Positions 1,303 through 59,551 of a stretch of 64,000 bases of DNA are shown in pieces. The notes below the pieces were generated by a model that saw only the letters and a program-made list of their open reading frames with translations, was not told the DNA's origin and did not search any database. Each line of letters opens with the position of its first letter. The stretch's first letter is position 1. The DNA comes from Candidatus Woesearchaeota archaeon (GTDB taxonomy: Archaea; Nanobdellota; Nanobdellia; Pacearchaeales; GW2011-AR1), in NCBI GenBank assembly GCA_964514585.1, contig CAZETU010000001.1:50523-114522 (forward strand), in the 5' to 3' direction. A program made the position numbers and the translations under genes.

Positions 1303-1893
1303 ATGCCACTAACACAAGAAGAAACCCAAAAAATAAAAGAACACCTCCTAAAACAATTAGGAAACTTCCCAGAAGACAAAAGAACGCAAATAGAAGAACA
1401 GGTCAAATCCATGACAAACAAACAAGTTGAAAGCTTCGTCGAACAAAACAAGCTAACACATCTCGGTGGACAATGCATTTTCTGTTCAATCATTTCAGGA
1501 GAAATGCCTTCTTATAAAATCGCAGAAAGCGACCACGACATAGCAATTCTCGAAATAAACCCAATAAGCAAAGGACACGCTCTAATAGTCCCAAAAGAAC
1601 ACTCTCAAGAAATTCAAGAATCAACAAAAGCCCTCGCAACACAAATTTCAAACAAACTCAAAGAAAAATTTAGCCCAAAAGAAATACAAGTAAACCAAAT
1701 TAGCATAATGGATCACGCAATGCTCGAAGTCATCCCAATCTACGGTGACGAGACAGAAAGAAAGAAAGCTTCCGAAGAAGAACTACAAGAACTACAAAAA
1801 GAAATAACAAAACCAAAAGAAGAAATTATAATAAAAGAAGAACCAAAAGAACCAGAAATAGAACTCCCAAGACTTCCGCCAAGAATTCCTTAA
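1303..1893 (+). CDS. HIT-family protein with N-terminal extension and degenerate triad
   Basis: CIFCSII, LEINPISKGHALIVPKEH; the HxHxH position reads DHAMLEVIP. Confidence 0.8.
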   Translation: MPLTQEETQKIKEHLLKQLGNFPEDKRTQIEEQVKSMTNKQVESFVEQNKLTHLGGQCIFCSIISGEMPSYKIAESDHDIAILEINPISKGHALIVPKEHSQEIQESTKALATQISNKLKEKFSPKEIQVNQISIMDHAMLEVIPIYGDETERKKASEEELQELQKEITKPKEEIIIKEEPKEPEIELPRLPPRIP

Positions 1894-3035
1894 TCTCTAT
1901 ACTGTGCCTCATAAATTCCAAGCACTTCCTCGGCCGACAAGCTTCGATTAAAAACCATCAAATCGTCAATAGATCCATTAAAAAACCTCTGAGGAATCCC
2001 CACGTCATCAAACTGCCCTCCAATATAAACAGGATTGTCCATAAGAGCAACAGGACCACTACCTAAAGTCAAATTATCCAGAGTGCCGTTCACATATAAA
2101 AGATAATGCGTTTCGTTAAAAACCCCAACAAGATGATACCATGTATTATAGTCTTGAGTGGTCCAATTTCTTGAAGAAAGAACCTCGTGATTTGTTGCAT
2201 TTATCCAAACTCCGAAATTCACCTTTTCTTTATGGAATCTTAAAAAGGGTTGTGAGTTTTGATTAACATTATCCCAACTTGATCCAAAAACAGCATTCCA
2301 ATTATTATAATTTAAAGAACTTATTTTGGTCCAAACAGAAAAACTAAAAGAATTATTATTAACAAAACCATAGAGTTCTTTGTTAGATAAATTTGCATAA
2401 TCACCATCGCCATCTAAATTTAAACTGCCATTCACAATAGATGCATTCCCTTCCAAAACACCGTCGCCATAATCCCAACCATCTGCAGAGTCACCACTAA
2501 AAGTCCAAATAGAAATCAAATCATCGATAGGAATTTCCATAAAAGAATCTACCTCCATCCCATAGACAACCCCGTCAACACTAGACATAGAATTTTTGGG
2601 CATCTTAATATCGGCAGCGATATCTCCTTCTTTCTCAGTCCCCCTAGAAGAAACAAAAATCGGAACGATATTGACACTATCTGATTCTCCATATCCCGAT
2701 AAATCAAAAGTATAAACTTTAGTCTGCCCCGACGCAGGAGCTATTAAATTAGTACTAAAAGTATTTCCCCCAATCAAAAAAGAAATTTTAATTCTATCTA
2801 TATTCATCTCATCAGGCCTCCTTCTGACCTGAACCATAGCAATATTTCTAAAAGAATCATAAGAAGTATATCCCTCCGAAGTCACGATCATAATACTCAC
2901 CTCTAAATTTCTAAACTCTAGGCTATCATAAACCATCGGTATAATCATCATCCATAAAATAGTGATGGCCGCAATAGTAATTAAAATTATCAAAACCGTA
3001 GCAACAATCGCCGATATACCCTTTTTTAACATCAA
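1890..3035 (-). CDS. Class III signal (pilin-like) protein with C-terminal LamG/concanavalin-like domain
   Basis: KKG|ISAIVATVLIILITIAA leader; WYHLVGVF...LYVNG...FNGSIDDLMVFNRSLS LamG signature. Confidence 0.8.
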   Translation of the reverse strand: MMLKKGISAIVATVLIILITIAAITILWMMIIPMVYDSLEFRNLEVSIMIVTSEGYTSYDSFRNIAMVQVRRRPDEMNIDRIKISFLIGGNTFSTNLIAPASGQTKVYTFDLSGYGESDSVNIVPIFVSSRGTEKEGDIAADIKMPKNSMSSVDGVVYGMEVDSFMEIPIDDLISIWTFSGDSADGWDYGDGVLEGNASIVNGSLNLDGDGDYANLSNKELYGFVNNNSFSFSVWTKISSLNYNNWNAVFGSSWDNVNQNSQPFLRFHKEKVNFGVWINATNHEVLSSRNWTTQDYNTWYHLVGVFNETHYLLYVNGTLDNLTLGSGPVALMDNPVYIGGQFDDVGIPQRFFNGSIDDLMVFNRSLSAEEVLGIYEAQYRD

Positions 3036-3062
3036 CAGAAAAGGAAAATATATTATTTAAAA

Positions 3063-3890
3063 TTAAGTCAACCCCATTAAAACACCAATAAGCCAATCTG
3101 TAAAAAACATATACAAAGCAAAGGCAATCAAAAACGCTGGAACAAAGGGCAGCCCATCTTTTATCTTAACCTTCTTCCTAGACTTCAACAACTTAATGCT
3201 CTCCGCGCTCAAACCATCCCAATCCGCCTTAATCGTTTTCTTTCCAACCTTAATATCATCAACAAGCCAATCCCCCTCGCGAAGCTCCTTTCCAGAAATA
3301 ACCTTAATCATCGAAACATTTTCCAACCCCTTAGTAAAAACAAACAAAACAGGCAAAACAAAAGAAAATCCAGCAAACAAAAGAAAAAATAAATTATAAT
3401 AACTAAAAACTAAAAACAATAACCCGATAAAAACGGGATACCTAATCCACCACTCACGAAAACCCTTCCTAATTTCCCTATTCACTTTTTTATAATTTCT
3501 AAAATACAATATGAAAGAATAAAACAATCCATAAAAAGAACCGGCAACCATCAAAAACAAAAGAAAGACTCCAATATTAATCAACGTCTTAAAAAAATCA
3601 ACCCCGATAAAAAATGCCGTCATAGCAAATAACAAATTAGCATCACCCCCAGCAAAAACCCGACCATAATAAAAAACATTCATAAAAACAAACATCACGA
3701 CCAAAGCAAACCCAGCCTGAAAAACAATTCCTGCATTCTCCTCAAAAATAGCTCGATAAAAAATATAAGAAAAACTAATCAATAACAAAAACAGCGTCAA
3801 CCAATAATCAACCTCACGCCTCTTCAAATCCTGCAAACATGCAACAATAATCCCAATTAAAAACACCCAAGCAATAAAACCAAATATCAT
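3063..3890 (-). CDS. Prepilin peptidase (A24 family)
   Basis: QDLKRREV and GGDANLL aspartate motifs, multi-TM, C-terminal GLPFVPAF. Confidence 0.85.
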   Translation of the reverse strand: MIFGFIAWVFLIGIIVACLQDLKRREVDYWLTLFLLLISFSYIFYRAIFEENAGIVFQAGFALVVMFVFMNVFYYGRVFAGGDANLLFAMTAFFIGVDFFKTLINIGVFLLFLMVAGSFYGLFYSFILYFRNYKKVNREIRKGFREWWIRYPVFIGLLFLVFSYYNLFFLLFAGFSFVLPVLFVFTKGLENVSMIKVISGKELREGDWLVDDIKVGKKTIKADWDGLSAESIKLLKSRKKVKIKDGLPFVPAFLIAFALYMFFTDWLIGVLMGLT

Positions 3891-9852: not shown

Positions 9853-10206
9853 CTACCCCGCACAACTAATCCCCGAACAATCCAACTCCCCAACTTTCCC
9901 TGAAGACCAAGCCGCCTTACCAACAGCACTACAATTCATCATCACATTCCTACGATTATCATCTCCAAAAACAATTTCCTTTTTCTCACAGCAATAAGCA
10001 TAAGTCGATTGACTCGTAGCCAAAGAATCACAAGCGCTAATCACAGCATCAACATTACTCTCAGTAGATTGAGTCTTAAAAAACCGCGAAAAAAATCCAG
10101 TCTGCGCATTAAAAAAAATCACAAGAACCGTCAAAACTGAAATCGACAAAACAATCATAATCACAGTTGTCAAAGCCATCTCCATCCCCTTCTTATTTCG
10201 CCTCAT
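9853..10206 (-). CDS. Type IV pilin
   Basis: MRRNKKG|MEMALTTVIMIVLSISVL; similar Cys pattern to 9362..9817. Confidence 0.75.
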   Translation of the reverse strand: MRRNKKGMEMALTTVIMIVLSISVLTVLVIFFNAQTGFFSRFFKTQSTESNVDAVISACDSLATSQSTYAYCCEKKEIVFGDDNRRNVMMNCSAVGKAAWSSGKVGELDCSGISCAG

Positions 10207-10260
10207 AAAAAACAAAACAAAACAATCTTTATAAAATTACTCACTCAAAGCAACAACTTA

Positions 10261-10419
10261 CATGAGAAACGCGGCGCTCGAAGAGTGCTGCAGTTTTTCA
10301 TGGGAGAAAGATACTCCAAAACCATATCGGTCGTTTCGGAATTTACTTCCGAAAAAGACCCAATCTAAATTTCTGCAGAAATTTTACAACGATTTTCTCA
10401 CCAGAGAAAATGTTGACTA
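10261..10419 (+). ncRNA. Structured five-hairpin element, copy 1 (unknown family)
   Basis: Hairpins with loops GAA, ATGG, TTTAC, TGCA, ACCA; the same architecture recurs at 57319-57479 with compensatory substitutions. Structure is seen; transcription is not demonstrated. Confidence 0.7.
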
Positions 10420-12588
10420 TCAAGTCAATCCCGACAACGCCGCAGCCCCGATAATAGTCAAACCAACGATTGCCCCGGTCGCAACAATTATATACAAAAC
10501 CATGGTCGATTTCAAATTCTTCCCAGTCTGCGCCGTCACTTGCAACTGATCCCGCCCAGACTTTATCGTCACCAACGTACTCGTCAAAATAAAAACAATC
10601 TCAATCAAATAAAGCCCAATCACAATCTGCAACCAGTACGTCGGAATCATCAAGGTAATATCAAAAATTGAAAGTATCCCCTGAATCCCCCCAGCGCCCA
10701 AAACTTCCTCGCCACCAGCACCATTCTCAAACATCGTCGACAAACTCCCCAAAATTGTCGTAATCATTCCAGCCAACCCAATAATAATCCCAGACAACAA
10801 CGGCGCCAAAAAAGTCATATTCGATTTCATGTCCGAAACAATATCCGCCAACAAATCATTCAGTCGCTCATTAATCTTTTTAATATTCTTAACATAATCA
10901 CTAATCGACATCAGACTCCTAGCCGCAACCTGCAACCCCTTTTTAGACGACTCAACCAAAATCCTCATCGAAGTAGCAATCAACTGCGACGGATAAAAAA
11001 TCACAGCCCCCCTCTTAGGATCAAACAAAGCCCTCTCCAAACTCATACCCAACTGCTGAATATTCTCATTCACAATTCTAAAAAAACCTTCAGTTGCCGT
11101 CCCCTTCGTAGAATCACTAACCTTCGCAAACGCCATCTCCGTCGGCAAACCATCCCCAATCCTATTCCCAAGTTGAAACAAAGACGAAGTAAACTCTTTT
11201 TCGACTTCCTTATATTTCGTCCTCTCAACCAAAATAACCTTCGTCTTATCTTTGTAGACAACAATAAATAAAAGTGCAATAGAAATAGGAATAAACAAAC
11301 TCAAAAGCAAAGACAAAGAACCAAATGGCCCAGTCAAATTTCCAGCAGCGTCGGGAATTATACCAAAAGCCCCACTATTCCCCAAAAATCCAAACCCAAG
11401 TTCCGTCCACGAATAATCCCTCGCAAATCCCATCATAATAGGAATATCCGTGTATCTCCAAAAAAACGGGATCAATCCAATAATAAACAACGGCAACGCC
11501 AAAATTATCCCCTTAAAATAAGCCGCATTACTTTTATACCGAGGATAAAGAGGATTCTGCTCCAACAAACTCGACTCCCCATAACCACCAGGTCGCTCCA
11601 TCATAACCTTACTCGTCATATAAATCACCAAAAACGGAATCATAATATTAAAAATCAAAAACACATGATACCACTTAATCGCCCCGCTAAGCATCGTCGA
11701 AGCCAAAGGCAAAATCGCCAAACTTAAAGTCGGCAAAACAATTCCCAACATATAAATATTCGTCAACGGCGCCTTCACCTCATGAGTATATTTCAACATC
11801 TTATCATAAACACCGTCAAGAATAACCTCCAAACTCTTCTCTAAAATATTAATTCTCCGCCCCTCACTAGGCTCATACAAACTCGACTCAATCAAATGAA
11901 ACGCCTCGACAAACTCAACACTATAACTTTTCCAACCCTTCAAATAATTATCCACACTATCCTTTATCGTCGAAAATCGCCCAACTTCAACATCCCAAAA
12001 AATCTTCCGAAAATCCAGACTCAAAGGCGGCTCTAAATGTTCGGCAGCAAAGGCAACGGCCTTCTCAAAATTACTCGTATGTTTCATATAAATTACAATA
12101 TACAAAATCGCGGGAACCATCTGAGAACTGGCCTTCAATCTCCACTTCATCGCCAAACGATCGGGAGCTCTCGAATAATAAAAAAACAAAAATATAGCCA
12201 ACACAAAAACCAAAAATAAAAACATCAAAGAAAAGGCTCCAGTTAATAACCAAATCCCAACAAAAAACATCGCACCACCAAAAAGAGTCATCAACAACAA
12301 CATCGTCGCAAAAACCACAACCTCACTTACCGAAACATTCAAATGAGCAACATCAATCCCTTGCTGAATCCGAACACTATCCTTATCTCCAACCTTAATC
12401 CGAAACATATTCCCAAAAGTCTTACACCACCTCTCATACCGCGAAAACTCCGGCAACATCGACGACCGAAACTGATCATAACTCTTAGAAAACTTTTTCT
12501 TCGACGGCGACCGCTTATTATAACCCTTCATCTGCGTCTCTATCTTCGCCCCATACTTCTTCAAAATATCATCAGTACTACTCATCAC
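10420..12588 (-). CDS. Type IV pilus membrane platform protein (T2SS-F/TadC/FlaJ-like)
   Basis: Two soluble domains alternating with TM bundles; GMSLERALF motif; linked to pilins and ATPase. Confidence 0.85.
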   Translation of the reverse strand: MMSSTDDILKKYGAKIETQMKGYNKRSPSKKKFSKSYDQFRSSMLPEFSRYERWCKTFGNMFRIKVGDKDSVRIQQGIDVAHLNVSVSEVVVFATMLLLMTLFGGAMFFVGIWLLTGAFSLMFLFLVFVLAIFLFFYYSRAPDRLAMKWRLKASSQMVPAILYIVIYMKHTSNFEKAVAFAAEHLEPPLSLDFRKIFWDVEVGRFSTIKDSVDNYLKGWKSYSVEFVEAFHLIESSLYEPSEGRRINILEKSLEVILDGVYDKMLKYTHEVKAPLTNIYMLGIVLPTLSLAILPLASTMLSGAIKWYHVFLIFNIMIPFLVIYMTSKVMMERPGGYGESSLLEQNPLYPRYKSNAAYFKGIILALPLFIIGLIPFFWRYTDIPIMMGFARDYSWTELGFGFLGNSGAFGIIPDAAGNLTGPFGSLSLLLSLFIPISIALLFIVVYKDKTKVILVERTKYKEVEKEFTSSLFQLGNRIGDGLPTEMAFAKVSDSTKGTATEGFFRIVNENIQQLGMSLERALFDPKRGAVIFYPSQLIATSMRILVESSKKGLQVAARSLMSISDYVKNIKKINERLNDLLADIVSDMKSNMTFLAPLLSGIIIGLAGMITTILGSLSTMFENGAGGEEVLGAGGIQGILSIFDITLMIPTYWLQIVIGLYLIEIVFILTSTLVTIKSGRDQLQVTAQTGKNLKSTMVLYIIVATGAIVGLTIIGAAALSGLT

Positions 12589-37325: not shown

Positions 37326-40300
37326 TCACTTAGCATCACAAGTCATCACATTCTTCGCGATAAACGAATTCCCATATTCCTCATCCTCAACATACTTCCC
37401 AGAAAGTTTAACCGCATCCCCTTCCTTAATCCGTCTATCACTCAACGCCTCACGAAAATCATTAGGGAAAACCGTCACCTTCAACTCACTCGATTTAGAA
37501 CTTATATCCATAAACGCCATATCATCCCCATTCTTCGTCACAATCTGCGTGTACCTTTTAACAATCCCAAAAATATCCGCCTCCATATCATGCTTCAAAC
37601 TTTCAAAAGAAGTAAAATCCCCATTCTTCGCCTCATGATAAGCATCAATCTGATGACCACTAACACAAGCACCCAAAAGTTCACATTCTAAATCCAATTT
37701 AACCTTCAATTTCATCGGCGGCAAATCCGGATATTCAACAACATTCGCAACCCCACCAAACAAAGTCATCTGTTTCTCGGCAGCGTTACTATGCTTCTCA
37801 ACCCTATCATAAACTTCCAATAAGCTCGCCCGATTAATCCCCATATCATCAAAACACCCAACACTAATCAAAGAATGGCAAACCCGCTTATTCACCTTCG
37901 ACAAATCAACCCTATTCACAAAATCCTGATAACTCTTATATGGTCGACCCTCCATAATCTTCACCATCGCTTCACCCCCTACATTCTTAATCCCAGACAA
38001 CCCAACACGAATCAATTTGCCCGTTTTAGATGGAGATTCGTCAGAATCTCCTATAGGGGGTACGCCCGTGCGTGTCTCACCATCGACTTCGGGCTCACCA
38101 GAGTCATGTCCGCCGAGGACCTCAACGCTAAAATCCTCCCGAGAAGTATTAATATCAGGATGCAAAATCTTAATCCCCTCACTTCTAGCCGACTCTAAAT
38201 AAAAGGCCAACTTATCAGGATCACGAATCGCCGACGAAATTGTAGCCGCAAAAAATTCAACAGGATAATATTTCTTCAAATAAGCAGTTCGATATGAAAT
38301 CAAAGCATAAGCGGCCGCATGACTTTTATTAAAACTATAAGCCGCAAACTTCACAATATCATCCCACAACTTATCAACAGCAACCCTCTCCATCCCCGAA
38401 TGATTTATACAACCATCCTTAAACTGAACCTCCATCTTATGCATCAAATCAATCTTCTTCTTCCCAATTGCCTTCCTCAAAACATCAGAATCCCCAGCAC
38501 TAAAACCAGCCAACGCCCTCGACAACTGCATCACCTGTTCCTGATAAACCATAATGCCATAAGTCGGCGCCAAAATTTTCTCAGCATTAGGATGAACATA
38601 AACAACCTCCTCTTTCCCTGCCTTTCGATTTGCATAAGCAGGAATATACTGCATTGGACCCGGACGATACAAAGCACCAATAGCAATAAGATCATCAAAA
38701 CGATCAGGCTGCACCTGTCTCAATGTCTTTCTCATTCCCTCACTTTCAAATTGAAAAACTCCAATACTTTTCTCTTCTCGCAACATCTTATAAACCGAAT
38801 CATCATCCATCGGCAAATTTTCCAACCACTTATCATCCTTACCAATCGCATCCAAAACTTTCTTAATAACATTCAAAGTCTCTAAGCCCAACATATCAAA
38901 CTTCACCAAACCATAAGTCTCAATATCGGGCCCCTCAACCTGAGTAATCACATCCCCATGCTTAGCATACGTCGGAATATATTCATTAATCCCTTCCTTC
39001 CCCCAAACAACACCACAAGCATGAACGCCCTTATGCCGGACACACCCCTCAAGCCTAGAAGCAATCTCAAAAATTTGCTTATACTTTTCTTTAAAATTAT
39101 TTAGCTGTGCAGCGTCATCAGTTGGCTTTCCATCCTCACGGCAAGCTTCCAAGCTTTTCTTAATCGTTTTCTCATTAACCAACTTGGTAATCGCATTAGC
39201 CTCTTCAAACGGAACCCGAAAAACCCTCATGACATCTTTCAAAACCGACTTCGCACTCATTGTTCCAAAAGTCCCAATCATCGCAATCTTTTCCTTACCA
39301 TACTTCTTCCGAACATAATCCAAAACAACATCCTTATCCCCAAAGTCAACATCAAAGTCTGGTAAAGAAATCCTATCAGGATTCAAAAAACGCTCAAACA
39401 ACAAACCCAACACCAACGGATCCAACTGCGTAATCCCAAGACTATAGGCAACAATCGAACCAGCACCACTCCCCCGACCAGGACCAACTTGACAAAATTT
39501 CTTAGCCTCCCGAATAAAATCCGCAACAATCAAAAAATAAGTCTCAAACCCCATCTTCCCAATAACGTCCAACTCAAAATTCATCCGGTCAATAGCCTCC
39601 TTGTAATTCTCCTTATCTTTATATCTTTCATCAAGTCCTTCTTTACACAACTTATACAAATAATCTTTATGGCTCATTCCATCGGGCGCGTCAAAATGTG
39701 GAAAAATAGGCTCACCCATATCCAACTCAACATTACACTTATCCGCGACCTCACAAGTATTCGAAATCCACTCCTGGTTATCTCCAAACTTCTCCAACAT
39801 CTCATCCTCGCTCTTCACCCAATAACCCTCTCCACTAAACCGAAACCGTTTCTCATCATCCATATTCCCATTCGTCCCAACCGCCAACATAACCTCGTGT
39901 GCATAAGCATCATCTTTTTTCAAAAAATGAGAATCAACCGTCGCAACAACCTTCAAACCATACTCCCCACCCATCCTCTTATAAAAATCAACGACCTTCG
40001 CCTCCTCGGCAATCCCATGATTCTGAACCTCTAAATAAAAATCCTCCTTCCCAAAAACATTAATATAATCTTCAATCAACTTTTTAGCCTTTTCTTCATC
40101 GTTATTATTAACCGCCCTAGCAATATCATTCGCAATACAAGCACTCATACAAATCAACCCCTTAGAATGTTTCCTCAAAAAATCCATATCAATCCGCGCC
40201 CGATAATAAAACCCCTCGTTATTAGCAGTCGAAACAAGCCGAACCAAATTCTTATATCCCTCTAAATCCTTAGCCAACAAAATCAAATGATAATTAGGCA

Positions 40301-57318: not shown

Positions 57319-57479
57319 CATGAGAAGACGTGCGCGTTGAAAACGCCACGGCTTATTATGGAAGTAACCTAGCCCAACCCCAAAAATCAAAACGGCGCAA
57401 TTCACTTGCGCAGGCTTTGGAATCTAATCCTTTGCAGAGGATTCCCTAACGATTTTTTCACCAGAAAAAATGTTAACTA
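57319..57479 (+). ncRNA. Structured five-hairpin element, copy 2 (unknown family)
   Basis: Loops GAA, ATGG, TTCAC, TGCA, ACCA; stems covary with copy 1 at 10261-10419. Confidence 0.7.
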
Positions 57480-59200
57480 CCTTACCTCCCGCTTCACAAT
57501 CCTCTGATAAATCTTATCCTGAAACTTCTTCGGCAACTTCTTGTAAATATCATTTATCTTCGCGTGCAACCTAACCGCGTCCTCTTTTCTGAATTCATCC
57601 TTCGCCTTCTCATACTCCTTAACCAAATTCATAACATCCCTCTTATTTATCACCAACCGCACCCGACCAATCTCCTTATAAAAATACGGCTTACACTTCT
57701 CAGGCAAAACCTTGTAAATCTCACCCATCTTATGATAATTATCCCGCGCCGCCTCAACATTATTCTCCCGAACAAACATCTTACTCTGACTAATCAAATC
57801 CAAAATCCGAACAACATTAGGCTCCTTCTTCCAAGTCTCCATCTTCACCTTCCCAAAAATAAAAAACCCGACATACCCCAAGAATAAAAATCCAACCAAA
57901 AAGAAAAACGAGAAGAAACTAAGCCCCTCGCCAACCCCAATAAAAAACCCAGTCATCATATTACCATCTCCACCTTCATCCTTAAATAAAATACTTTCGG
58001 TCGCCTCAATATTCGTCAATTTAAAATCATCCTCAAAATAATAAACAATATTATCCCCATCCAAGTCCCCAGTATTCAACTCCCAAATCCCCTCGCCAAG
58101 ATCCTCACCTTCAGAAACAAAAACAACATCCCCAGAAATACCCTCAGGAATCACCTCCAAAATAATCCCATCAAAATTCAAATCATCAAAGTCCATATTC
58201 TTACTAACCAAAACAATATCCTTAGTACTATCCAAATATTCAATACTCAACTTCAAAGCCTCGACATTCATCCTCAAATTATTCTGCAACTCCTCATTAA
58301 AATCAACCAACCCATAAAGCGCGCTCTTCTTAATACTAAGCCCCTTAGCCGCCATATAATCCGAAATCACTTCCTCAAGCGAAACACCAAGGCTACTCTT
58401 CGAATACTCATAACTGTCCTCAACACTAATCCCCAAAACAATATCATCCTTCATCACATCAATCTCATCATAAATCTCCCCAATCCTAACAGTCCTCTTT
58501 CCCTCCTCCATAAACTTCAAATTAAACTTCAAATCCTGATCCATCTGCACCAACTGCTTCTTATAAAAATTCATATTCTCGCCCAACCCAAGAATCTCCA
58601 AAGCCCGTTGTTCATCGGCTCCCAAATTATCCATATCTTCCAAAAAATCATTAATACCATCAATCAAATCCTGCACCAAATCTTCCTTATCATAACTATC
58701 GGGCTTATCAGTAGCCCTCAACACAACATTTTCCTCTCCATCAGTCTCAACCTCAAACCCATTAAAATCCTCACCTTCATTCCCAGCCGCATCATAACAA
58801 TTAACCTGCCAAATATAATAACCATCATCAAAGTCAACCAAAAGAAGATTCTCTTCCCCATTATTATTAAGATTATCCTCAAAAGCCAAATTCTTATTAG
58901 AACTACCAAGAGGGAAAAGCAACTCCTTTTGAGCATAAGACCCACCAGAACTCTTGGTCGCATTATACAACTCAAAACTACAATTCACAACATCAACATC
59001 ATCATCAAACTCATACTCAAACTCAATAGTCGAATTATCAACAACCTCATCCCAAGCAGGATAAATCAAATCAACATCAGGACTCTCATCGTCACCATCA
59101 TCATCCACAACAGTCAGTTTACCAAAATAAATATCAGAATAAGGTTTACTATTGATCATAATGCCCCTTAACCACACATCATGAGTTCCCTCATTAAATA
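57477..59200 (-). pseudogene. Large surface/membrane protein, apparently N-terminally truncated
   Basis: Ig-like and coiled-coil regions plus TM; no signal peptide, and its 5' end runs into antisense sequence of the opposite-strand fragment at about 59200. Confidence 0.55.
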
Positions 59201-59551
59201 TCAGACGATAATGATGGGGTTGATGAAACATTTACACTAGATGGTTCTCATGAAGCAGGTGAAAGTTACGTCCACGATATGTTTTATACAAACAACTTAC
59301 AATTTACAACAGGTGAGTGCTTAAGTACGACAATTTTCGATAGCACAGGAAGCGCTGGAGAAGACAATTTCGAAGAAGTTCTTTTATATGAGCCAGTAAG
59401 TGAATCGGTAATATTTGCAGCAATACTAGATGAGGCAGATACTTCAGGTTTCGATAGCAGGTTTCACGATTTCGAGATGCTTGTTTTAGAAGACGGTCAC
59501 GGAACAAATATAGCAACTACTACCTACTACTTTTACGTAGAGCTAGAGTAA
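59198..59551 (+). pseudogene. 3' fragment of a paralogue of 59577..60341
   Basis: Frame open from 59198 (ISDDNDGVDETF...) to FEEVLLYE...FAAIL...DFEMLV...TYYFYVELE; no N-terminus. Confidence 0.7.

What the first reader, a model, noticed from the sequence alone, without database searches (positions are those of the whole stretch)
10261..10419. Covarying ~160-nt five-hairpin element, repeated at 57319-57479 and abutting stop codons
Seen: two intergenic segments 47 kb apart (159 and 161 nt) share CATGAGAA - P1(loop GAA) - P2(loop ATGG) - CCAAAA linker - P3(loop TTYAC) - AATCTAA - P4(loop TGCA) - P5(bulged G, loop ACCA) - GTTRACTA. Loops and linkers are conserved while stems change compensatorily: P5 C-G to T-A at two pairs; P4 AAATTTC/GAAATTT versus AATCCTT/GAGGATT (three double substitutions); P1 and P3 differ in sequence but still pair. 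Wobble pairs read G.T on the + strand, antisense to the host genes and against the local C/A-rich bias. Both copies end in CTA: a TAG directly after the TGA stop of the pilus platform gene, and the TAG stop itself of the 57477 gene. Both lie between a stop codon and the next gene's TATA-like box. Inference: a selected structured RNA or ssDNA element (antisense ncRNA, 3' cis-element, or non-autonomous palindromic mobile element targeting TAG). I recognise no family.
Basis: partly seen in the sequence, partly recalled or inferred. Interest (0 to 1): 0.85.

Follow-up and report, generated by a model that had tools for sequence, protein, structure and literature searches.

The report
Mobile hairpin-train repeat capping gene ends
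The two look-alike segments are the full-length copies, in this window, of an uncatalogued family of small non-coding multi-hairpin elements that has spread through a few tiny Pacearchaeota (DPANN) genomes. The copies land directly behind the ends of genes; what moves them, and whether the cell uses them as terminators, is still open.

Summary
Both segments exist as described and covary, and no Rfam family matches them. They are not a two-copy curiosity. A covariance model of the shared 3' core (P3-P5) finds 12 copies in this genome and about 43 in one congener (Ca. Pacearchaeota RS_8_59). It finds 1-2 copies in four others, none in 43 further genomes of the genus, and more in metagenomes.

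The family is mobile. Orthologous sites in relatives are empty, and one shared site holds copies in opposite orientations. Nine recent copies are flanked by 20-129 nt direct duplications of the target, usually the last codons plus stop of a gene.

The 3' end of the element is sharp (GTYRAY); the 5' part is modular. In 29 of 56 copies this 3' end lies -5 to +8 nt from a convergent stop codon (about 3% expected). Three more copies abut 5S rRNA or tRNA 3' ends, so TAG is not the target.

P3-P5 show no strand preference and carry T-runs on both strands.

No partner transposase, TnpB or reverse transcriptase was found. The scan had already met this family elsewhere in this genome (e1-5860587, e1-2516343).

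The parts
10261..10419 (+). Copy A, full-length element (P1-P2-P3-P4-P5). It lies antisense to the flanking genes, between the platform-gene stop and the next gene's TATA box.
   Evidence: model R1 scores 89.9 bits on 10326-10417
10261..10302 (+). Copy A, hairpin P1: 19 pairs with one bulge and a GAA loop. Its 5' arm is A-rich and its 3' arm U-rich, and it has 3 G.U pairs on the + strand.
10303..10317 (+). Copy A, small hairpin P2 (a variable module)
10329..10360 (+). Copy A, hairpin P3 with loop UUUAC
10367..10384 (+). Copy A, hairpin P4 with the CTGCAG apex
10387..10415 (+). Copy A, hairpin P5: bulged G, C-ACCA-G apex and A/T stem, giving a T-run on both strands. The family's conserved end GTYRAY stops at 10417.
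10420..12588 (-). Pilus platform-type gene (722 aa). Its TGA stop (10420-10422) lies 2 nt from the element's conserved end.
10228..10235 (.). Palindromic TATA box (TTTATAAA) of the next, leaderless gene (ATG at 10206, - strand). It lies 26 nt left of P1.
   Evidence: homologous TATA boxes sit right after the stop in relatives with an empty site
57319..57479 (+). Copy B, full-length element, antisense to the flanking genes
   Evidence: R1 scores 72.1 bits on 57385-57477
57319..57360 (+). Copy B, hairpin P1
57395..57411 (+). Copy B, P3 inner hairpin with loop AUUCAC. An outer helix of about 57371-57416 is predicted.
57426..57443 (+). Copy B, hairpin P4
57447..57475 (+). Copy B, hairpin P5. The conserved end stops at 57477.
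57477..59231 (-). 584-aa gene. Its TAG stop (57477-57479) overlaps the last base of the element's conserved end.

Best explanation
Copies A and B belong to a family of modular, non-coding, non-autonomous mobile elements. Each is a 'hairpin train' made of an invariant 3' core (P3-P4-P5, ending sharply in GTYRAY) and interchangeable 5' modules (P1, P2 and others). SHOWN: the family has inserted repeatedly and independently at the 3' boundaries of transcription units in a few species of one Pacearchaeota genus. Recent insertions duplicate 20-129 nt of the target. Stems evolve by compensatory change while loops and linkers stay fixed. INFERRED: (i) propagation passes through a single-stranded form of the + strand, either RNA or ssDNA. 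This is inferred because P1 pairs only on that strand, the 3' end is precise, and the 5' end varies. (ii) The copies that persist are those with P5 directly behind a gene end. P5 puts a run of 4-7 T on either strand within about 20 nt of the stop. There the element most likely acts as a compact two-way transcription stop or insulator between tightly packed genes, so it is tolerated or mildly useful. The enzyme that moves it is not identified.
For: Family size and patchiness: 12 copies in G000, 42-43 in G030, 1-2 in G003, G005, G015 and G061, none in 43 other genomes of the genus or in 24 genomes of other genera of the order. Further copies occur in metagenome contigs. Insertion: at site A about 28 congeners have the stop codon followed within 0-15 nt by the next gene's TATA box, while G000 carries the 159-nt element there. 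At site B four congeners are empty. G015 and G030 hold the element at the same intergenic site in opposite orientations. G000 and G030 share at least four occupied sites, but with different subtypes and different junctions. Target duplications: nine copies have flanking direct repeats of 20-129 nt at 86-100% identity. Two of them were re-checked, and the same structure is present in independent assemblies from other samples. Sharp 3' end: conservation stops at the Y of GTYRAY. Position: in 29 of 56 copies the 3' end lies -5 to +8 nt from a convergent stop, against 2.9% expected for random intergenic placement. Three more copies abut 5S rRNA or tRNA 3' ends. Structure under selection. Strand: P1 has 44 G.U pairs on + and 1 on -, with mean folding energy -21.3 against -11.9 kcal/mol. 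This runs against the flanks, which fold better on the - strand. T-runs: 58 of 62 distinct P5 have at least 4 T on the gene-sense strand and 42 of 62 have at least 5; the + strand is similar. U-tracts are the archaeal terminator signal (PMC8716108 abstract).
Against: No transcript data exist, so neither termination nor any RNA product is shown. No mobilising enzyme was found. Y1 (IS200-type) transposases occur in G000 and G030, but their element ends are unrelated, and 9 element-free genomes also carry them. No TnpB or IS4-type DDE transposase was found in G000 or G030. The only reverse transcriptase in G000 belongs to a DGR, and none was seen in G030. The DR boundary falls 0-2 nt after the stop codon even in recent insertions, which suggests targeting rather than mere survival, and I cannot explain how. 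Loops are sequence-conserved (C-ACCA-G, CTGCAG, GAA), which a plain terminator would not need. Shared occupied sites could partly reflect old insertions homogenised within each genome. The model-fitted alignment leans towards the structure.
Confidence: 0.6

Rival explanations
1. A retroposon-like element (SINE-like). The + strand RNA is reverse-transcribed from its precise 3' end (the P5 hairpin) and joined to nicked DNA or to the 3' ends of other transcripts by target priming or template switching. This would give variable 5' ends, short filler nucleotides and variable-length target duplications.
For: The 3' end is precise and the 5' end is variable or modular. There are 1-5 nt of A/T filler between the element and the downstream repeat. 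Target duplications vary from 20 to 129 nt. P1 is strand-specific and G.U-rich, as expected for RNA. Junctions lie at the 3' ends of protein, 5S rRNA and tRNA genes, which would be RNA 3' ends.
Against: No reverse transcriptase was detected in G030, the genome with the most and the youngest copies, although it is only about 87% complete. The RT of G000 is a DGR enzyme with its own TR/VR pair. The 5' variation looks like module exchange rather than simple truncation. At least one bounded insert includes AT-rich sequence upstream of P1. No such retroposon is known in archaea (own knowledge).
Confidence: 0.13
2. A hairpin element moved as single-stranded DNA by an HUH (Y1) transposase, like IS200/IS605-derived PATEs or REP/REPIN elements moved by RAYTs.
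For: The folding is strand-specific, there are subterminal hairpins and no terminal inverted repeats. All 12 copies in G000 have the same strand relation to an extreme, contig-wide GC skew. The two high-copy genomes both carry IS200-type Y1 genes.
Against: The ends of the IS200-like elements in G000 and G030 do not resemble P1 or P5. Four element-bearing genomes lack Y1, and nine element-free genomes have it, one with ten matches. This family inserts without target duplication (own knowledge), yet long duplications are seen. P1 and P5 are unlike each other, whereas IS608 ends share one hairpin (own knowledge). The folding strand is the C-rich strand; by the usual skew convention that is not the lagging-strand template (inference).
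Confidence: 0.1
3. A family of genuine small-RNA genes whose 3' tails run antisense into the end of the convergent gene and regulate it (cis-antisense), or whose conserved loops bind a protein.
For: Loops and linkers are conserved while stems covary. P1 folds only on the + strand. In A and B a palindromic TATA box lies about 26 nt upstream of P1. Most copies face a convergent gene.
Against: The family is absent from 43 of 49 genomes of the genus, and copy number ranges from 1 to 43, unlike a housekeeping RNA. The capped genes are unrelated and include rRNA and tRNA genes. Most copies lack P1. AT-rich boxes upstream of P1 lie at inconsistent distances in other copies. About ten copies face a promoter instead of a gene end, and several sit in the sense orientation.
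Confidence: 0.1
4. A guide-RNA scaffold (TnpB/IscB omega-RNA-like or crRNA-like) whose guide is the flanking sequence 3' of P5.
For: A multi-hairpin scaffold with a sharp 3' boundary is followed by variable sequence.
Against: No OrfB_IS605 match was found in five element-bearing genomes, and there were only weak zinc-ribbon hits in G000. No Rfam omega-RNA or HEARO match was found. No conserved protein lies next to the copies. Target duplications are not a feature of these systems (own knowledge).
Confidence: 0.03
5. Integron-type attC recombination sites, folded on the bottom strand directly after the cassette ORF.
For: The elements sit just after stop codons, fold on the strand antisense to the ORF, have a bulged G in P5, and end in GTY..., which recalls GTTRRRY.
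Against: The copies are single and dispersed among core genes with their own promoters, and gene order in relatives is the same without them. The two ends do not pair with each other. The end motif is GTYRAY, not GTTRRRY. Several independent hairpins replace the single R/L-box stem.
Confidence: 0.02

Closest known systems
REP / BIME / REPIN elements of Proteobacteria (moved by RAYT, a Y1 HUH transposase)
   Same: Both are dispersed extragenic hairpin repeats that sit just after stop codons. Both show compensatory stem changes and patchy copy number, and both are proposed to end or stabilise transcripts.
   Different: This element is 90-220 nt with three to five different hairpins, not a roughly 35-nt palindrome or an inverted doublet. 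It has no GTAG-type head and no flanked RAYT gene. It makes long target duplications, and it is archaeal.
BOX elements of Streptococcus pneumoniae and bcr1-type repeats of the Bacillus cereus group (own knowledge)
   Same: All are modular trains of hairpin modules with conserved RNA-like structure, lie in intergenic regions near gene ends, and have no known mobiliser.
   Different: There is no sequence relation. The module order here is fixed at the 3' end only. These elements are strongly flush with gene ends, and their duplications are long and variable rather than short or absent.
IS1634 / IS1549 (IS1634 family, DDE transposons)
   Same: They are the known prokaryotic elements that make long, variable-length direct repeats on insertion (8-514 bp; PMC2266710).
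   Different: Those are 1.5-2 kb elements with terminal inverted repeats and a DDE transposase. No DDE_Tnp_1 gene was found in G000 or G030, and the element has no inverted termini.
SINEs and other non-autonomous retroposons that share a 3' stem-loop with their partner (own knowledge)
   Same: They have a precise 3' end carrying a hairpin, a variable 5' end, variable target duplications, filler nucleotides and a strand-specific RNA-like structure.
   Different: No partner reverse transcriptase was found and no internal promoter is shown. The kind is not known in archaea.
IS200/IS605-derived PATEs
   Same: They have subterminal hairpins, no inverted termini, single-strand specificity and a strand-biased orientation.
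   Different: Target duplications are present here. The element's ends are unlike those of the resident IS200 copies, and there is no conserved target tetranucleotide.

Membership tests
Any Rfam 15 RNA family | Score at or above the family's gathering threshold | tested here: not met
   No hit was found on the window. Only chance-level hits (E above 1) fell on the two copies under permissive settings. On 21 related loci the only hits were tRNA and 5S rRNA neighbours.
MITE (classical) | Terminal inverted repeats matching a resident transposon | tested here: not met
   Inserts bounded by direct repeats begin with unrelated sequences and end in GTYRAY plus 1-5 nt. The termini are not inverted copies of each other.
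MITE (classical) | Short target-site duplication of fixed length | tested here: not met
   The duplications are 20, 26, 46, 51, 55, 74, 108, 122 and 129 nt. No duplication was found around the 12 G000 copies.
REP/REPIN with RAYT | A Y1 (RAYT) gene flanked by the repeat and co-occurring with it | tested here: not met
   Y1_Tnp is present in 11 of 49 genomes, but in only 2 of the 6 that carry the element. The IS200-like ends are unrelated to it.
REP/REPIN with RAYT | A short single palindrome, often in inverted pairs | tested here: not met
   The core has three different hairpins in a fixed order, and no inverted doublets were seen.
IS200/IS605 PATE | Insertion without target duplication, 3' of a conserved tetra- or pentanucleotide | tested here: not met
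   Long duplications are present, and there is no conserved base beyond either end.
TnpB/IscB omega-RNA | A partner RuvC nuclease gene (OrfB_IS605 with zinc ribbon) in the genome, normally overlapping the RNA | tested here: not met
   PF01385 gave no match in G000, G030, G003, G005 or G015. PF07282 gave only weak hits in G000. No shared neighbouring protein was found.
Non-LTR retroposon / SINE | Precise 3' end, variable 5' end and variable-length target duplications | tested here: met
Non-LTR retroposon / SINE | A partner reverse transcriptase in the same genome | tested here: not met
   RVT_1 is absent from G030, G005 and G015, which are incomplete genomes. The G000 RT is a DGR enzyme.
Integron attC | R''/R' core sites (RYYYAAC ... 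GTTRRRY) at the two ends that pair with each other, in cassette arrays beside an integrase | tested here: not met
   The end motif is GTYRAY. The ends do not pair. The copies are single and lie among core genes that keep their order in relatives.
Archaeal U-tract terminator | A run of T on the transcribed sense strand shortly after the gene end | tested here: met
   On the gene-sense strand, 58 of 62 distinct P5 have at least 4 T and 42 of 62 have at least 5 T within 22 nt of the element's end.
Archaeal U-tract terminator | Transcript 3' ends mapped at the site | not testable with these tools
   No RNA data are available.

The most novel reading that the evidence does not exclude
The element is an RNA-mediated mobile non-coding gene of DPANN archaea. 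In this reading its + strand RNA is copied from the P5 end and joined to the 3' ends of other transcripts or to nicks at gene ends, by target priming or end-to-end template switching. That would explain four things at once: the precise 3' end, the filler bases, the variable 20-129 nt duplications, and the junctions lying exactly at the ends of protein, tRNA and 5S rRNA genes. It would be the first SINE-like retroposon described in Archaea.
Probability: 0.12. Interest if true: 0.85.

Novelty: new variant of a known kind. Interest (0 to 1): 0.5.

Why it matters
DPANN archaea have about 1 Mb genomes with almost no spare DNA, yet this family reaches dozens of copies and keeps its fold by compensatory change. 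It shows that small structured repeats of the REP/BOX kind also exist in archaea. Its traits are not reported together for any prokaryotic repeat I could find: a sharp 3' end, swappable 5' modules, long variable target duplications, and junctions at the exact ends of genes. It gives a concrete test case for how gene boundaries, meaning termination and insulation between genes a few bases apart, are set in ultra-compact archaeal genomes. It also points to a mobilisation mechanism with no identified enzyme. For annotation, a covariance model of the core would mask these sites. It would also explain one-codon changes at C-termini, where the element supplies the stop codon.

Tried and rejected
- **Protein-coding reading.** The + strand ORF 10262-10549 starts at the ATG of the element's first bases. 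In copy B the same frame stops after six codons, so it is not a gene.
- **Decayed duplication.** Rejected by the 12 + 43 further copies and by the covariation.
- **Rfam.** No family matched, even at permissive thresholds.
- **TnpB/omega-RNA, DDE transposase (PF01609) and RT.** No suitable partner was found.
- **Y1 transposase as mobiliser.** The ends of three IS200-like elements were compared with the element and do not match. Presence across 49 genomes does not track the element.
- **An autonomous master copy.** No protein family recurs next to the copies. P1 does not occur outside the element in G000.
- **Viral origin.** The P5 pattern is absent from 2.9 million viral contigs.
- **Own promoter.** AT-rich boxes upstream of P1 lie at inconsistent distances, so this was left open rather than claimed.
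- **Replication-strand test in G030.** Its skew is weak and follows gene direction (23 of 30), so the test was inconclusive.
- **Empty alleles of young insertions.** A search of other assemblies found only filled alleles.
- **The in-frame hairpin insertion in dnaE (window 38022-38120).** The core model does not match it.

Full report
**1. The observation**

Each lies between the stop codon of a - strand gene and the promoter region of the next - strand gene. The genes are 10420-12588 and 57477-59231.

As RNA, the + strand folds far better than shuffles (z -7.3 and -3.1). It also folds better than the - strand (z -4.0 and -1.2). Rfam 15 has no match at gathering or permissive thresholds.

The ORF that starts at the element's ATG (10262-10549) is not conserved in copy B, so the element is non-coding.

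**2. It is a family, not a pair**

An nhmmer profile of the two copies found nine more copies in the same 1.04-Mb, 18-contig genome. They share the 3' two-thirds, P3-P4-P5. A covariance model of that core (R1) added one more. The result:

- 12 copies in the genome;
- only two of them in this window.

Across 49 genomes of the genus, six carry the element:

| Genome | Copies |
|---|---|
| G000 | 12 |
| G030 | 42-43 |
| G003 | 2 |
| G015 | 2 |
| G005 | 1 |
| G061 | 1 |

None of the 24 genomes sampled from other genera of the order has it. A pattern scan names G030 as Candidatus Pacearchaeota archaeon RS_8_59 and G005 as an unnamed archaeal MAG. Seventeen further matches lie on metagenome contigs, and none on viral contigs.

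**3. Structure**

Two alignments support the fold:

- In a MAFFT alignment of the 11 copies then known in this genome, 19 of 29 pairs show changes on both sides. 88.5% of cells pair, against 75.3% after shuffling and at most 55% when partners are slid.
- In the model-fitted alignment of 48 distinct copies, 28 of 29 pairs covary and 94% of cells pair, against 71.6%. This alignment leans towards the structure.

Loops and linkers are conserved in sequence: C-ACCA-G on P5, CTGCAG on P4, and the bulged G of P5.

P3 exists in at least two forms, and the 5' part is modular. P1 is a 19-20-pair hairpin with a GAA loop. It occurs in only three G000 copies (A, B and the one ending at C1:127066) and in 15 copies elsewhere. 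Other copies carry a short GC hairpin (P2) or a different 5' block.

**4. Which strand folds**

P1 gives a clear answer. Over 17 copies it has 44 G.U pairs on the + strand and one on the - strand. Its mean folding energy is -21.3 against -11.9 kcal/mol. This is against the local trend, because flanking DNA folds better on the G-rich - strand.

The core gives no answer:

- G.U against A.C is 6:11 in P4 and 9:5 in P5.
- The overall excess (56:31) comes from P3, mostly from two wobble-rich pairs of its outer helix.
- Core energies are equal on both strands.

So a single-stranded form of the + strand matters for P1. P3-P5 would work on either strand or as DNA.

**5. Position**

In 29 of 56 copies from five genomes, the 3' end lies -5 to +8 nt from the stop codon of a convergent ORF. 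In G000 this holds for 10 of 12 copies. Random placement in G000 intergenic DNA would give 2.9% (with a crude ORF-based gene model).

All three stop codons occur. In several copies the stop is formed by the element's own last bases.

Three more copies abut the 3' end of a convergent RNA gene:

- 5S rRNA in G000;
- 5S rRNA, independently, in G003;
- a tRNA in G030.

About ten copies instead end just upstream of the TATA box of a co-directional gene. The target is therefore a gene boundary, not TAG.

**6. Mobility**

*Site A.* About 28 congeners have the platform-gene stop followed directly by the next gene's TATA box and a start codon 30-75 nt away. G000 has the element between the stop (+2 nt) and a spacer that is still alignable with the closest relatives. 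G030 has an element of another subtype at the same site, with a different junction.

*Site B.* Four congeners are empty. G000 and G030 are filled, again with different junction codons.

*Orientation.* G015 and G030 carry the element between the same two orthologous genes in opposite orientations.

*Shared sites.* G000 and G030 share at least four occupied sites. Copies resemble others in their own genome more than their positional counterparts. This means either recurrent insertion into a limited set of permissive sites or within-genome homogenisation. The opposite-orientation case shows that at least some insertions are independent.

**7. Target duplications**

Nine copies are flanked by direct repeats of 20-129 nt at 86-100% identity. 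Seven of these copies are in G030 and two are on metagenome contigs.

Where a gene is involved, the repeat is the last N nucleotides of that gene including its stop codon. The repeat's boundary lies 0-2 nt beyond the stop. The gene stays intact on one side, and a redundant copy of its end lies on the other side of the element.

Between GTYRAY and the downstream repeat there are 1-5 A/T-rich filler bases. The 5' ends of the bounded inserts share no sequence. Conservation stops exactly at the Y of GTYRAY.

Two of these structures were re-checked. Each is identical in independent assemblies from other samples, which argues against an assembly artefact. I found no empty allele.

The 12 G000 copies have no such repeats and look older. 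Among duplication-flanked (young) copies the sense orientation is common. Among copies without repeats the antisense, P5-first orientation dominates. This pattern suggests that selection after insertion shapes the orientation bias (inference).

**8. What moves it**

Nothing convincing was found:

- **IS200-type Y1 transposases.** They are present in G000 (two identical 666-bp copies) and G030 (five matches), but their ends are unrelated to the element. The gene does not track the element across 49 genomes.
- **TnpB and IS4/IS1634-type DDE genes.** They are absent from G000 and G030.
- **Reverse transcriptase.** The RT of G000 sits in a classic DGR whose template repeat differs from the variable repeat at adenines. 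G030 shows no RT.
- **Neighbouring proteins.** No protein family recurs beside the copies.

Long variable duplications are known for IS1634 and IS1549 (8-514 bp; PMC2266710). They are also known for target-primed retroposition (own knowledge). The element fits the retroposon pattern in form but lacks the enzyme.

**9. What it may do**

P5 is an A/T stem that places a run of T on both strands. On the gene-sense strand, within 22 nt of the element's end, 58 of 62 distinct copies have at least 4 T and 42 of 62 have at least 5 T.

P1 looks like a hairpin followed by a U-run on the + strand. U-tracts are the archaeal terminator signal (PMC8716108).

At empty sites the stop codon runs straight into the next promoter with no T-run. 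A copy placed P5-first behind a stop would therefore give that gene a terminator within about 20 nt and shield the next promoter. This is inference, and no RNA data exist. The conserved loops hint at an additional binding partner.

**10. Orientation and strand composition**

G000 has an extreme GC skew of constant sign along whole contigs (about ±0.3-0.45), independent of gene direction. All 12 copies have their folding strand on the C-rich strand.

With 62% of genes on the G-rich strand, gene-relative orientation alone would give 12 of 12 with a probability of about 0.003 (own arithmetic). G030 has only a weak, gene-driven skew, so the test there is uninformative (23 of 30).

**11. Relation to earlier notes of this scan**

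Two follow-ups on other parts of this genome (e1-5860587 and e1-2516343) described the same family as a hairpin repeat capping gene ends, and read it as a likely terminator or RNA-end protector. I agree on family and position.

- the strand-specific P1;
- the long target duplications with a sharp 3' end;
- the empty-site and opposite-orientation evidence for repeated insertion;
- the negative tests for candidate mobilisers.

**12. Verdict**

The element is an uncatalogued, mobile, modular hairpin repeat of a Pacearchaeota subclade. It is a new variant of the REP/BOX/MITE kind, with an unexplained insertion mechanism and a plausible but untested role as a portable terminator.

Noticed in passing
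whole genome G000 (window = C1:50523-114522): GC skew is extreme and keeps the same sign along whole contigs: C1 -0.32, C4 -0.37, C2 +0.30, C6 +0.33, with 20-kb bins down to -0.45. It is largely independent of local gene direction. The congener G030 shows only about ±0.1.
   Followed up: partly
G000 C5:30963-31628 and C5:59408-60073: Two 99.85%-identical copies of a 666-bp IS200-like element. Both carry the same in-frame TGA inside the Y1 transposase ORF. This is either a shared inactivation or a read-through codon.
   Followed up: partly
L145 (G000 C7:1-7000), 1376-3313: A diversity-generating retroelement. The variable repeat lies at 1963-2042, at the 3' end of a 263-aa gene. The template repeat lies at 2338-2417 and differs at adenines, inside or just before the 337-aa reverse transcriptase ORF.
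   Followed up: partly
orthologues of the window 10216-10419 site in relatives (L119, L120, L136, L140, L134): The same stop-to-promoter gap after the platform gene holds other inserts in other species. G031 has four tandem 15-nt repeats. G023, G026 and G068 carry a different long A/T hairpin with a CTGGT apex. G027 and G024 have GC-rich repeats. The site is a hot spot for small insertions.
   Followed up: no
L048:1015-1180 and L050 (G030): In one G030 copy the apex of P1 is interrupted by a roughly 100-nt block. The same block also occurs upstream of another copy. It may be a second small structured element nested in the first.
   Followed up: no
It has a C-ACCA-G-like apex, but the core model does not recognise it, even with filters off.
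   Followed up: partly
L026 (G000 C1:125476-128566): Two element copies bracket a 5S rRNA plus two-tRNA cluster. One abuts the 5S 3' end. The other lies just upstream of the cluster's promoter side.
   Followed up: partly
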